DNA of 63,990 nucleotides, counting the filler, from Kipferlia bialata (lineage: Eukaryota), in the NCBI GenBank assembly GCA_003568945.1. It is 5 parts of 5 records of this genome, joined end to end, with 100 filler letters (N's around TTAATTAATTAA, not from the genome) between each part and the next. Parts side by side here need not be neighbours in the genome. Positions count along the whole stretch, not along the records: positions 1 to 15,097 come from BDIP01000745.1; positions 15,198 to 30,265 come from BDIP01000746.1; positions 30,366 to 45,426 come from BDIP01000747.1; positions 45,527 to 60,572 come from BDIP01000748.1; 1 more part is not named here. One strand, given 5' to 3'. Below, piece after piece: positions 62 through 60,502 of this stretch. Both the position numbers and the translations under genes were made by a program. Within the stretch, counting starts at the first letter, position 1; each line of letters begins with the position of its first letter. The notes below the pieces were generated by a model. It was not told the origin of the DNA and searched no databases. It was given only the letters and a program-made list of their open reading frames with translations.

Positions 62-715
62 GAGTGCTGGGGTGAGTGCTCTGCCGGCAAGTCGTGCCAC
101 ATGAACAGCAACCACACATGCACATGCGCCTTCTGTGGATGGTCCACCCCAGAGCAGGTATGGGATATGTTCATACTTATGCAATGCATCTATATGCCCA
201 TGTATATAAGTCCAATTATGTATACACTCATATATATATATGCGCCATCTGTGGATGGTCCACCCCAGAGCAGGTATGGGATATACATCTATCTATGTGA
301 TTATGTATATATATATGCCCCAATCTCCCCATCGATCCCAGGGCAAGGAATCCCCCCCATGTCTTTTGTCTGTGTAGGTTCACTCTCTAAGAGGCTCTCT
401 CTCACCTTATATTTCATATATGCAATACATCTCACCTCAGACTGAGTGTGTGGGTACCTGCCAGGTGAATGGCATGGAGTGCAGCCAGAAGAGTCCCACA
501 CAGCAGTGCACATGTGGGGACCAGGTACAATATTAATATGTATATATATACAGACGTATGTATGTATGTATATATATATATGTCAGAAGAGTGCCACACA
601 GCAGTGCACATGTGGAGACCAGGTATATGACCATAATAGTATATTCCCATGGCTTTCTCTCTCCCCCCCTCTCTCATACCAGTATGTCTATGATTTTGGC
701 GGTGACAGGTGCATG

Positions 716-751
<36 letters not shown>

Positions 752-1054
752 CACCCCAGTGTGTGTATGACTTTGCCAGTGACAGGTGCATGGGTGACTG
801 CGTCATGGGGTCATGCGTCCTCACATCGGTATGTCACCTCTCTCTCTCTCTGTGTATACGTGCACCATGCATCAGTCTCTGGTGCTGCTCTCTCTATCGT
901 TTCCCCAGCGTCAGGCGCCTACATACATAGCCATCTCTCTCTCTCTCACCAGGGCCACTGCACTGTATATGGCATGTCTCTCCGTCTCTATCTCTCTCTC
1001 TCTCTCTCCCTCTCCCTCTCACCCCAGCATGAGAAGTGCACTTGCAAGCACTAG
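62..1054 (+). CDS. Cysteine-rich protein, 3' part (multi-exon, 5' end off contig)
   Basis: GT-AG exons give ECWGECSAGKSCHMNSNHTCTCAFCGWSTPEQ / TECVGTCQVNGMECSQKSPTQQCTCGDQ / CVYDFASDRCMGDCVMGSCVLTS / ...HEKCTCKH* (TAG 1052-1054). Repeated C-x-G-x-C...CTC units. Confidence 0.6.
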
Positions 1055-1658
1055 GTCTTGTAAGGTGTACCATCTTCCAAAGAGACAGACTGTATGATTC
1101 TTCCCCAGTCTGGTCCTGTGAGTGTACTGCATTGTTTCCAGTATCGAGTCTATCCCACCAACACATCATATTTCCATATTACCAGGATTTCCTGACTTGC
1201 TAGTAATAGATTGCTCACAGAGTGAGAGTATTACCCTAGGACTCCTAGGCTAGAGTCCTGATGGGAATGGACCCTTTTGCATATTAGACCCTTTTCTCGT
1301 TTTTCTCACTTGTCACCGAAGACCGTGTAGTGCCTAGCACCTTCGTCACCGTCCCTCTCTCTTCACTCAGTAGTCCTTTTGGACCAACAGGACCACCACA
1401 GCAACAGCCCTTACGACCATATAGGTAGTGATAGAGTGTTAGACAAGGAGCACAGCCTGCCGAGATGCCTTCTGGTACCTCTACACGGAACATTGACATG
1501 TTGTTCGTGGTCGATTTGGAAAGGCAAGTGGGTACTACCACCCCATATCTAACAGTGGATAACTGTTACACGCCTTTAGGAGAGTGGTTAGTGTGTTAGT
1601 GTGACGTTGTGGGGTAGTACTTGCTATGTGGTTGTCATGTGCTGTGTATATCATTCAC

Positions 1659-58278: not shown

Positions 58279-58612
58279 AGTTAGTCTTTCCCTCAGAGAT
58301 ATACGCTCGCTAACTCAATCAGACACACACTCCTGTCTCTACAACTCTGGTGTGCTCTGAAGCCTTCACTGGAAGTGGAGGTCACTTTGCCCGCACTTTC
58401 TCGGTTTGCCGCCAGTTGTCGTACCTATTTTAGCCCAAACTGGAAAGATATTGCCAAACCCGCTGCAATGAGGGTGTAGAAAATGTTTTTGACTACCCTA
58501 TCTACAGCCCTGTGACATATTGACATATGGCTGTATATGGGCCCTTGGCTTCGATGCTCGCGACAAGATGTCTCTCTCTCTCCCTCTCTTTACTAGGGTT
58601 CTTCGTTGAGTG
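58251..58612. promoter_or_regulatory. Short divergent (bidirectional) promoter region
   Basis: About 360 bp between the MSH6 ATG (minus strand) and the SAM-synthetase-like ATG (plus strand). Confidence 0.45.
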
Positions 58613-58681
58613 ATGGAGGATACATCTGGAGAGAACTTTGTGTTTACCAGTGAGAGTGTGTGTGAGGGCCACCCGGACAAG
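58613..58681 (+). CDS. First exon of S-adenosylmethionine synthetase (MAT/MetK); rest of gene not in window
   Basis: MEDTSGENFVFTSESVCEGHPDK|GT matches the conserved MAT N-terminal FTSESVxEGHPDK. Two 3'+donor echoes follow at ~58743 and ~58821. Confidence 0.8.
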
Positions 58682-59072
58682 GTATATGCATATGTCTATA
58701 TATATAGAGAGAGAGACATATATAGAAGTATATATATATGTATGAGGGCCACCCGGACAAGGTATATGCATATGTCTATATATATAGAGAGAGACATATA
58801 TAGAAGTGTATATATGTGTATGAGTGTGTGTGAGGGCCACCCGGACAAGGTAGGAAGCTGTGTATACCGCTTTAACCTCCGCTACCAAGTGTACATGTAT
58901 ACTCATACACCCCGTCATCGTGTCCTATTCATGTAACTGTGTTGTGCCTATTCGTGTGAAGAACAGGTTCAGTATCTCTTACGCTGCAACCCCCCCCCCC
59001 CCCCCCCCCCCACCCCCTCCCCCGTACTCATGAGTATGCTGTATATATGTCAGTCTTCACCCTTAACCCCAG

Positions 59073-60502
59073 GTGTGTTTGACTCTCTGTCCCCCACTGT
59101 CCTGTCTGCTGTGTGGGTGGGTGTGCCTGTCCTCATAGTGGGACTCAGCGCCATGGTCATAGGTGGGGATGGATATATATTTGTGTACTAGGTCATAGAG
59201 TATTCAATTGGGAATGTGTGCATACATATATATCCAATATGGAATCTATATATGTATACTGAGTATGAGCAGATCCGCGTACCACCACATCTCACCCCCA
59301 GGCACCCCGTCTGCCTCCTTCAGATATGCTCTGGCCAGACATAGATCACTCGACAGGCTGCAGGTCACAAACCCAATGCAAGGTACTCTATCTCTCTCTC
59401 TATCCTCTCTCTCTATGTATATATAGCAGTCACGAGCGAGAACATATATTTAGGACGCAGGTACCCCCCCCCCCCCTCTCTTCTTCGATGTCTCCCAACC
59501 CCCAGGTAGTATTGCGACCTCTAGGCTCAGAGACAAGAGCAAGAGCAAGAAGAATAGCCGTAGACATAGTAAGAACCTGGGATCAGGCCCTGACAGTCCA
59601 CTGTCAGCCTCGAAGGTGCATATATATATATATATATATATGTATACACTCACACACGTATATGTTGACCATATAGTTGTCTTTGTGTTGATGAAGGTGT
59701 ACTTACCCCTAGGCCTCTCTGCGTGGTCTCCCTGACCCATGTTTCCTGTACAAGTCAACGGTGCAGAGGCCGGTCAAGCTAGGTACAGATACCTAGTGTC
59801 GCTACTATATACGGTCCTATACTGATTTTGAAATGATATATATACACATTAGTATTCTCTTGTACGTGTAGCCGGCATGTGTATCCTCTATCTGTACTGA
59901 CCCCAGGCAACAGGGTTACCTGCCGTGCCCTGTGTCTCTTTGTATTCACTCTGGTTGCGTCTATCATCCTTGTCCTATCTCTCCTGGCCATGCAGATCAT
60001 ATCCAACGGTATATTCACAGAGTCAACAGTGGTCAATACTCAGCCCTCAATGGTCAACAAGGAGACAGATACAGAGGCACTCCTGGATCTGCAAGAGTGG
60101 GTGGATGCCATCATGGATACGGTACGTGAGCCACGAGAACCAGAATTACCCAAACTATACACTCACACACAACTATATCTATATACATGTATACATATAC
60201 AGACCCTCACCCCCAGGGCATGGGTGTGCAGATCCATACCCATTCCAGTGACACCACCATACCCCTAGTACCTCTGTCTGTACTGATAGTGGGTGTGGTG
60301 GTAGGGGACATGTTCTCACCATGGGGGGCATATATCAAGGGTAGGGGCTCTATGTATGTATATAGGGGGTAGTAAGGGGTCACTTGTGACGTCTAGCTTC
60401 CTCTTCTGTTTATGTATCTCTGTGTATGTGTGTGTCTGACCCTTTAGGCAGGGCCCTGAGGAAGGAGTCGACATCAGACTCAATCAAGAGGAGGGTCAGA
60501 AG
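59073..60502 (+). CDS. Internal fragment of a multi-pass membrane protein
   Basis: Exons with hydrophobic segments VLSAVWVGVPVLIVGLSAMVIG, ALCLFVFTLVASIILVLSLLAMQII and IPLVPLSVLIVGVVVG. Bounded by poly-C tracts on both sides. Confidence 0.55.

What the first reader, a model, noticed from the sequence alone, without database searches (positions are those of the whole stretch)
62..60502. Polarised 'exon echoes': introns full of partial exon copies that diverge mainly at synonymous sites
Seen: in most multi-exon genes here (both Cys-rich genes, zinc-finger, FG-GAP, S41-like, MSH6, MAT), exons are flanked by 1-8 partial copies with consistent polarity. Upstream copies are branch point + acceptor + exon 5' part. 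Downstream copies are exon 3' part + donor. Copies are separated by (TA)n/(CT)n and distal copies are often more decayed. In many copies most differences from the intact exon are synonymous (see the separate findings). Established: a dead duplicate accumulates mostly non-synonymous changes, because about three quarters of random changes alter the amino acid. Inference: polarity alone fits tandem duplication with one breakpoint in the exon. The synonymous bias needs the copies to have been under protein-level selection. Options are serial swapping into the active slot by unequal crossover or gene conversion, capture from divergent alleles or homeologues, or use at the RNA or somatic-DNA level. 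I do not recognise this as a described system. An assembly artefact from stacked haplotypes is the main alternative.
Basis: partly seen in the sequence, partly recalled or inferred. Interest (0 to 1): 0.92.

Follow-up and report, generated by a model that had tools for sequence, protein, structure and literature searches.

The report
Half-exon echoes of former alleles
In an intron-rich anaerobic protist, over half of the exons examined are flanked by half-copies that keep one splice site and, in the one gene tested, are cut out of the messenger RNA; their silent changes outnumber what a simple dead copy would show, likely because many were taken from other working alleles before they decayed.

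Summary
Real. 71 of 123 modelled exons carry half-copies: 63 upstream copies all start at the exon 5' end, 72 downstream copies all reach its 3' end, none reversed. Over MSH6 exons 6-13 one DNA contig runs through the arrays at neighbour depth, and one spliced contig uses only the complete exons, so haplotype stacking and routine RNA use are unlikely. The bias survives the correction: 0.27 (0.20-0.36); silent share 0.53 against 0.35 for implanted dead copies. It is strong in MSH6 and one Cys-rich gene, absent in the S41-like and FG-GAP genes. Best reading (0.5): ~100-bp tandem duplications filtered by splicing, with echo and live exon descending from different working alleles, then neutral decay. 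This needs silent allele divergence near 0.15, which is not shown; the DNA run shows no second allele. Host is a fornicate, probably Kipferlia bialata (inferred). The scan noted similar junction copies in a sea urchin, where the bias matched the dead-copy null.

The parts
45708..58250 (-). MSH6-like mismatch-repair gene, 29 exons modelled, cut by the contig end; 28 echo arrays; dN/dS 0.15
   Evidence: 811 codons without a stop; exon 9 matches Pfam MutS_I, E 7.8e-08; exons 6-13 match a spliced contig
56853..57363 (-). Five upstream echoes (acceptor + first 30-37 nt) of MSH6 exon 3 (56775-56704)
51611..52442 (-). Seven downstream echoes (last 22-49 nt + donor) of MSH6 exon 13 (52595-52514); five variants shared among subsets of copies, all silent
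53854..54399 (-). MSH6 exon 9 (54173-54084) with two upstream and two downstream echoes; introns of 542 and 479 nt are skipped whole in the RNA contig
49219..49801 (-). MSH6 exon 20 (49703-49608) with one upstream and three downstream echoes; nearest downstream copy has 10 silent and 1 amino-acid-changing difference
30407..33620 (+). Cys-rich gene 2 (ephrin-receptor-like repeats), 11 exons, 9 arrays; dN/dS 0.18; the exon 8 echo (32612-32650) has silent changes in its first five codons
   Evidence: Pfam PF07699 E 9.8e-10
34321..44691 (+). S41-like membrane protein gene, 34 exons modelled, 19 arrays; dN/dS 0.48, as for plain dead copies
   Evidence: Peptidase_S41 only E 0.1, below cut-off, so the name is weak
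5211..14429 (+). Zinc-finger-like gene, 27 exons, 19 arrays; dN/dS 0.28
   Evidence: name from Cys/His spacing, no Pfam hit on the one exon tried
17632..20779 (-). FG-GAP-like repeat gene, 12 exons, 6 arrays; dN/dS 0.44
62..828 (+). Cys-rich gene 1 fragment, 3 exons, 3 echoes; dN/dS 0.41
58613..58849 (+). S-adenosylmethionine synthetase exon 1 (58613-58681) with two downstream echoes; young, spacer still matches its flank
   Evidence: Pfam PF00438 E 3.7e-05
1827..4768 (+). Gene G1b, 6 exons, one detected echo (2170-2187); its two long exons (613 and 1116 nt) have none at the cut-off

Best explanation
The echoes are half-exons with one splice site that lie inside introns and, in MSH6, are spliced out; they likely arise as ~100-bp tandem duplications with one break in the exon, and many likely descend from a different working allele than the live exon. 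Steps: (1) inferred: duplications of about 60-150 bp occur often. (2) inferred from shown polarity: only products that leave the complete exon as the closest acceptor-donor pair survive; whole-exon and near-whole copies are removed. (3) shown for MSH6 exons 6-13: the mRNA uses the complete exons. (4) inferred: echo and live exon come from two alleles, either by unequal exchange between homologues at birth or by ordinary recombination and short conversion tracts while the echo segregates, so they start with a silent-only difference of about 0.1-0.15. (5) supported by counts: the echo then decays neutrally, about 0.07 changes per site so far, older copies further out.
For: Polarity 135 of 135 anchored hits. 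Only 2 of 85 echoes exceed two thirds of the exon against about 21 expected from unit sizes; spacers never under 40 nt. Spliced contig = exons 6-13, four listed joints are GT-AG and skip the echoes. One echo per array (86): 155 silent, 135 amino-acid-changing; dN/dS 0.27, bootstrap 0.20-0.36; dead copies implanted into real introns and found by the same method give silent share 0.35-0.36, highest 0.41 in 28 runs, against 0.53. Without MSH6 still 0.32, p=0.013. Changes private to the proximal echo are 22 silent to 17 amino-acid-changing, spread over 12 of 34 arrays; 5.9 silent expected on a dead branch. Silent and amino-acid-changing divergence are uncorrelated across echoes (rho 0.02; dead-copy simulation 0.25-0.58). 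The amino-acid changes look neutral: stops 5 of 135, 4.7% expected; BLOSUM mean -0.42 against -0.56; AT-biased 67:27 while silent ones are 73:53. Silent changes cluster in neighbouring codons (32 pairs against 20, p=0.001), as patchwork exchange would give. An allele model with divergence 0.15 reproduces the share (0.50-0.55).
Against: No second allele or strain was seen: the DNA run lists no other letters over the 3-kb stretch (contigs drop variants, so this does not prove homozygosity). The needed silent divergence of about 0.15 is high and was fitted, not measured. S41-like, FG-GAP and Cys-rich-1 fit plain dead copies. The observed rho lies at the lower edge of the allele simulation (0.02-0.40). 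Only 22 of 85 spacers clearly match the flank they should have been copied from, and some perfect echoes have unmatched spacers. Polarising assumes the proximal copy is youngest, which fails in 7 of 34 arrays. One window, 8 genes, hand-made models.
Confidence: 0.5

Rival explanations
1. The live exon alone evolves fast at silent sites (selection to differ from its echo, or error-prone resynthesis filtered by selection), while the echo is a plain dead copy.
For: Sites where the live exon differs from all echoes are 16 silent to 7 amino-acid-changing, 16 against 5.9 expected. Silent changes cluster. Needs no high allele diversity.
Against: The proximal echo's own branch has the same silent excess (22 against 5.9; share 0.56, bootstrap 0.36-0.74).
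Confidence: 0.15
2. Plain dead tandem duplicates; the silent bias is only purifying selection on the live exon plus sampling.
For: Fits S41-like (0.48), FG-GAP (0.44), Cys-rich-1 (0.41); distal decay and ladder order fit; the 14 silent changes shared by echo subsets are also expected under it.
Against: Pooled share 0.53 against 0.41 analytic (p about 1e-5; still p=0.017 at a transition bias of 10) and 0.35 simulated; fourfold sites 104/460 against second positions 62/917; echo splice dinucleotides broken at only 2.4% per site.
Confidence: 0.12
3. Split and replace: a broken exon is rescued by inserting a whole replacement exon with intron flanks from the homologue between its two halves, which remain as the upstream and downstream echoes.
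For: In 10 of 15 exons with echoes on both sides the two halves add up to the exon within 9 nt, and overlap never exceeds 7 nt. Gives polarity and silent bias in one step.
Against: Cut-off chosen after seeing the data; p ranges 0.003-0.12 by null and statistic. Two-sided exons are no commoner than independence predicts (15 against 14.9). The missing half was found in 1 of 27 and 1 of 22 one-sided exons.
Confidence: 0.1
4. The copies are or were used in RNA, as minor isoforms or as whole mutually exclusive exons that later lost half.
For: Eight distinct multi-base silent codon switches, seven Leu and one Ser, suggest long protein-level selection; most echo splice sites are intact.
Against: No whole copies and no reversed polarity; only 4 of 123 ungapped echoes have a GT-AG route that would swap the half in; the RNA contig uses complete exons. 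Contigs cannot show minor isoforms.
Confidence: 0.07
5. Assembly artefact from stacked haplotypes.
For: Short-read style, fragmented assembly; the DNA run may be the source of the window, so it is not independent; median echo distance about 105 nt is near a read length.
Against: A 2607-nt contig assembled separately runs collinear over 52677-55248 at depth 400, like its neighbours (395, 401); up to 7 distinct copies exceed two haplotypes; 9 echoes have frameshifts and several have stops.
Confidence: 0.03

Closest known systems
Human F7 intron 7 37-bp VNTR spanning the exon-intron boundary (PMC1557585; abstract and outline seen)
   Same: Exon end plus donor repeated into the intron; the first donor is used and the pseudo-sites stay silent.
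   Different: One locus with near-identical units. Here 71 of 123 exons, both acceptor and donor sides, mostly single copies with heterogeneous spacers, and a silent excess beyond the dead-copy null.
Partial exon duplications beside Drosophila Y-linked exons (PMC12758392; passages seen)
   Same: Dead partial exon copies in tandem with the functional exon amid simple-sequence introns.
   Different: Described as occasional, sometimes inverted, in heterochromatin; here direct, strictly polarised, about 100 bp apart, in housekeeping genes.
[quoted passage not shown]
   Same: Short tandem duplication that involves exon sequence and is tolerated because splicing removes the extra copy.
   Different: There an exonic AG|GT is duplicated and makes a new intron; here an existing splice site is duplicated and the old intron grows.
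Mutually exclusive exons from tandem exon duplication (PMC9013439, PMC8373072; search listings only)
   Same: Tandem exon copies with mainly silent divergence.
   Different: Those copies are complete and used; these have one splice site and are skipped.
Silent donor cassettes for gene conversion (chicken Ig pseudo-V, Borrelia vls, trypanosome VSG pseudogenes; recalled, no call)
   Same: Partial silent copies near an expressed sequence that look protein-constrained.
   Different: Those serve antigen or receptor diversity at dedicated loci; here MSH6 and MAT carry them, and stops and frameshifts accrue at neutral rates.

Membership tests
Junction-spanning duplicate with silent pseudo-splice sites (F7 IVS7 type) | Repeat unit spans an exon-intron boundary and keeps the splice site | tested here: met
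   135 anchored hits; AG intact 57 of 63, GT intact 67 of 72
Junction-spanning duplicate with silent pseudo-splice sites (F7 IVS7 type) | Authentic site nearest the exon is the one used | tested here: met
   Spliced contig over MSH6 exons 6-13; one gene, major form only
Junction-spanning duplicate with silent pseudo-splice sites (F7 IVS7 type) | Homogeneous minisatellite units | tested here: not met
   52 of 86 arrays are single copies; 22 of 85 spacers match the flank
Junction-spanning duplicate with silent pseudo-splice sites (F7 IVS7 type) | Pseudo-sites work when the authentic site is mutated; copy number varies between individuals | not testable with these tools
   needs minigenes and other isolates
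Mutually exclusive tandem exons | Complete copies with both splice sites | tested here: not met
   0 whole copies among 152 hits; 2 of 85 exceed two thirds of the exon
Mutually exclusive tandem exons | Alternative copies appear in mRNA | tested here: inconclusive
   single RNA contig shows live exons only; contigs drop rare forms
Intron gain by proto-splice-site duplication | Duplicated exonic AG|GT creates a new intron between the copies | tested here: not met
   4 of 123 ungapped echoes offer such a route; RNA joints use the outer exon ends
Gene-conversion donor cassettes (recalled) | Donors kept free of stops and frameshifts | tested here: not met
   stops 5 of 135 amino-acid changes against 4.7% neutral; 9 of 12 gapped echoes shift frame
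Gene-conversion donor cassettes (recalled) | Programmed transfer into the expressed copy | not testable with these tools
   needs clonal lines or raw reads
Ciliate-type eroded paralogous segments removed from somatic DNA (recalled) | A processed DNA form without the intervening sequence exists | tested here: not met
   DNA run shows the arrays at full depth and none of the four listed joints; presence only, contigs

The most novel reading that the evidence does not exclude
In a fornicate without classical end joining, exons are routinely renewed from the homologous chromosome by off-register recombination repair; each event parks half (sometimes both halves) of the previous working exon in the flanking intron, so introns grow as ordered archives of past alleles, and the reduced spliceosome copes by strict closest-pair exon definition.
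Probability: 0.2. Interest if true: 0.88.

Novelty: new variant of a known kind. Interest (0 to 1): 0.68.

Why it matters
Single cases of duplicated splice junctions are known; a genome in which most exons of intron-rich genes carry them, on both sides and with strict polarity, I did not find described. It is a natural experiment on splice-site choice: intact decoy acceptors and donors about 100 nt from the real ones are ignored, which points to exon definition or nested splicing in a short-intron protist; K. bialata is reported to keep 87 of 174 spliceosomal proteins with no snRNA candidates found (PMC6679479, passages). If the allele reading holds, one genome stores a sample of past alleles, from which diversity and dN/dS could be read, and intron length here is driven by duplication scars. 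It would also link intron architecture to recombination-based repair in metamonads, reported to lack NHEJ (PMC8516963, passages). Practical: echoes can mislead gene prediction and read mapping.

Tried and rejected
No whole genome is held, so nothing is genome-wide. Reads were laid on one 3-kb stretch of MSH6 only; the other genes have no read check. There, runs X3 and X5 laid nothing (no evidence either way), 54521-54702 was not covered by a listed piece, and one short secondary piece is listed with 0 other letters although echo and exon differ at two sites, so that column may under-count. The run search listed no holder on record as RNA; X2 is a guess, though its contig is spliced. Two metagenome scans for a second strain found nothing; the peroxiredoxin has no relative above 63% and a cluster of one. 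A gradient of divergence along echoes vanished against simulation. No AT-rich breakpoint hotspot (0.443 against 0.438). Whole-exon duplication with later decay rejected: it would give reversed-polarity pieces. Weak selection on echoes through conversion or pop-out rejected by argument: with dS near 0.25 the exchange rate is within about tenfold of the mutation rate, so the cost is too small unless diversity exceeds 1, and conversion erases silent differences (inference). Pfam gave no hit for 5 of 9 exons tried. Literature: 7 searches showed no description of this pattern in Kipferlia or other protists; most subscription papers are not held. From the Kipferlia genome paper (PMC5874029) I read parts 1-3 of 6 and saw no mention; supplements not opened. 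The Paramecium preprint gave no readable diversity numbers and is not used.
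Full report
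Setting. The window joins five contigs with N spacers. Introns are GT-AG with a branch-point motif a few bases from the acceptor and many (TA)n and (CT)n runs. The intronless peroxiredoxin at 29557-30150 has Dysnectes brevis as its best named relative (63%). An intron-rich fornicate of this G+C is probably Kipferlia bialata (124,912 introns, diploid by k-mers, short-read assembly; PMC5874029, parts 1-3 read). The species name is my inference; no call names it.

Observation. A self-comparison showed over a hundred short direct repeats 75-250 nt apart. I modelled 123 exons in 8 genes; all read open. Each exon alone was aligned to its two flanking introns. Of 152 hits, 63 were upstream and included the exon start, 72 were downstream and included the exon end, 17 were internal pieces (three of them GA repeats), none had reversed polarity and none was a whole exon; about 4 false hits are expected. 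71 of 123 exons have an echo. Echoes are 14-63 nt, the nearest starts 58-238 nt (median about 105) from the live splice site, spacers are 40-206 nt, and echo-free introns are 61-360 nt. Splice dinucleotides are intact in 82 of 86 proximal and 42 of 49 distal copies. Distal copies carry more amino-acid-changing differences (p=0.003).

Artefact and RNA use. On 52520-55495, DNA run X1 gave a 2607-nt contig with listed pieces 52677-54520 and 54703-55248, collinear across the 182-nt unlisted gap, depth 400 against 395 and 401 for neighbours, no other letters or gaps listed. Run X2 gave one 2869-nt contig whose eight pieces are my MSH6 exons 6-13 with consecutive record coordinates; the four listed joints are GT-AG and skip 223-542 nt, echoes included. 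X1 may be the source of the window, contigs drop rare forms, and the other-letters column may under-count, so this shows that the arrays are in the reads and that the main mRNA skips them, for one gene.

The silent bias. The right null is not dN/dS = 1. After duplication the dead copy takes all changes and the live exon takes silent ones, so the ratio is 0.5 or more. With one echo per array (86 arrays, 2740 sites) differences fall 64/62/164 on codon positions 1/2/3; 155 are silent and 135 change the amino acid, against a null share of 0.41 (p about 1e-5). Every base changes 1.4 to 6.6 times more often at third positions than at first or second, so composition does not explain it. Dropping 6 nt at the break and 3 at the splice site leaves 118:96, p=1.7e-5. 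dS is 0.26, dN 0.07, ratio 0.27 (0.20-0.36). Dead copies implanted into real introns and recovered by the same alignment gave 0.35-0.36, highest 0.41 in 28 runs. Genes differ: MSH6 0.15, Cys-rich-2 0.18, zinc-finger 0.28, Cys-rich-1 0.41, FG-GAP 0.44, S41-like 0.48; without MSH6 0.32, p=0.013.

Which branch carries the excess. In 34 multi-copy arrays, changes private to the proximal echo are 22 silent and 17 amino-acid-changing; changes in the live exon against all echoes are 16 and 7; changes shared by echo subsets are 14 and 0. The last are expected under a simple ladder too. The first are not: 17 amino-acid changes on a dead branch imply about 6 silent ones, and the 22 are spread over 12 arrays (share 0.56, bootstrap 0.36-0.74). 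Silent and amino-acid divergence do not correlate across echoes, though a common clock predicts 0.25-0.58. The amino-acid changes look like neutral decay (stops, BLOSUM, AT bias). Silent changes cluster in adjacent codons (32 against 20, p=0.001), amino-acid changes less so (25 against 18, p=0.014). This reads as two phases: a working phase with silent change only, then a dead phase.

Mechanism. One chromosome has one working half-exon at a time, and conversion between echo and live exon would erase silent differences, so a working phase for both needs two chromosomes or two RNA-level uses (inference). RNA use lacks splice signals (4 of 123 routes) and is not seen. Whole-exon duplication with later loss would also leave donor-bearing pieces upstream and acceptor-bearing pieces downstream; none exist. 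That leaves alleles: unequal exchange between homologues at birth, or ordinary recombination while an echo segregates, since an upstream echo sits where an echo-free homologue has its working exon start. Simulation needs allelic silent divergence near 0.15. That number is fitted; the DNA run shows no second allele, and no second strain was found. Polarity, the 40-nt spacer floor and the lack of long echoes (2 of 85 against about 21) are what selection on splicing would leave if the closest acceptor-donor pair defines the exon; nested removal of the inner intron first is the alternative and is untested. The origin of the breaks is open; metamonads are reported to lack NHEJ and rely on homologous recombination (PMC8516963), which is compatible, not evidence.

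Unexplained. Only 22 of 85 spacers clearly match the flank they should copy, though as a set they beat the null (p=4e-6); intron identity fades within 15-25 nt even beside near-perfect echoes. In 10 of 15 two-sided exons the halves add up to the exon within 9 nt, but the cut-off is post hoc, p runs 0.003-0.12, and partners are missing in one-sided exons.

Known relatives and verdict. It works like the F7 intron 7 junction repeat (PMC1557585) and the partial exon copies on the Drosophila Y (PMC12758392), and fails the tests for mutually exclusive exons, intron gain by proto-splice duplication and conversion cassettes. Seven paper searches showed no account of it at this scale. The scan's own notes hold similar junction copies in sea urchin genes, one with 43 of 107 silent, the dead-copy value (not checked by me). 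Verdict: real, a new variant of a known kind; the architecture is firm, the silent excess is firm for part of the genes, the allele explanation is about even odds.

Noticed in passing
window 46972-47010 (-): Third downstream echo of MSH6 exon 26 is identical to the exon over 39 nt except one serine codon changed at all three positions to another serine codon.
   Followed up: partly
window 8868-9338 (+): Around zinc-finger exon 12 the same AT-rich filler follows the upstream half and precedes the downstream halves at the same exon position, as if a copy split by an insertion had been duplicated; similar at MSH6 exon 13.
   Followed up: partly
window 13894-14040 (+): The zinc-finger frame stays open only with a GC donor after 13965, and a short downstream echo repeats the GC; possible GC-AG intron.
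   Followed up: partly
window 58981-59029, also 34165, 15055, 45393, 60524: Long poly-C runs sit at contig ends and inside contigs; MAT stops after exon 1 at one of them and an unrelated gene follows, so these look like joins through homopolymers.
   Followed up: no
window 21037-30150: G+C-rich (55-63%) genes with long exons and few introns carry no echoes, while echo-rich genes lie at 36-48% G+C.
   Followed up: no
window 47373-47385, 49839-49862, 8928-8956: A few internal exon pieces without either splice site; the first sits just upstream of the acceptor of MSH6 exon 26 and overlaps its branch region.
   Followed up: no
window 55902-56030 (-): A 33-nt direct repeat, 96 nt apart, inside MSH6 exon 5: an in-frame duplication of the same size class retained in coding sequence.
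   Followed up: no
window 5754-5772 (+): A downstream echo of zinc-finger exon 3 is preceded by an acceptor-like sequence that resembles the exon 4 acceptor, so it has both sites and could be a 19-nt cryptic exon.
   Followed up: no
window 60673-63000 (+): Last contig holds a gene with a kinase-like long exon and no echoes seen in the self-comparison.
   Followed up: no
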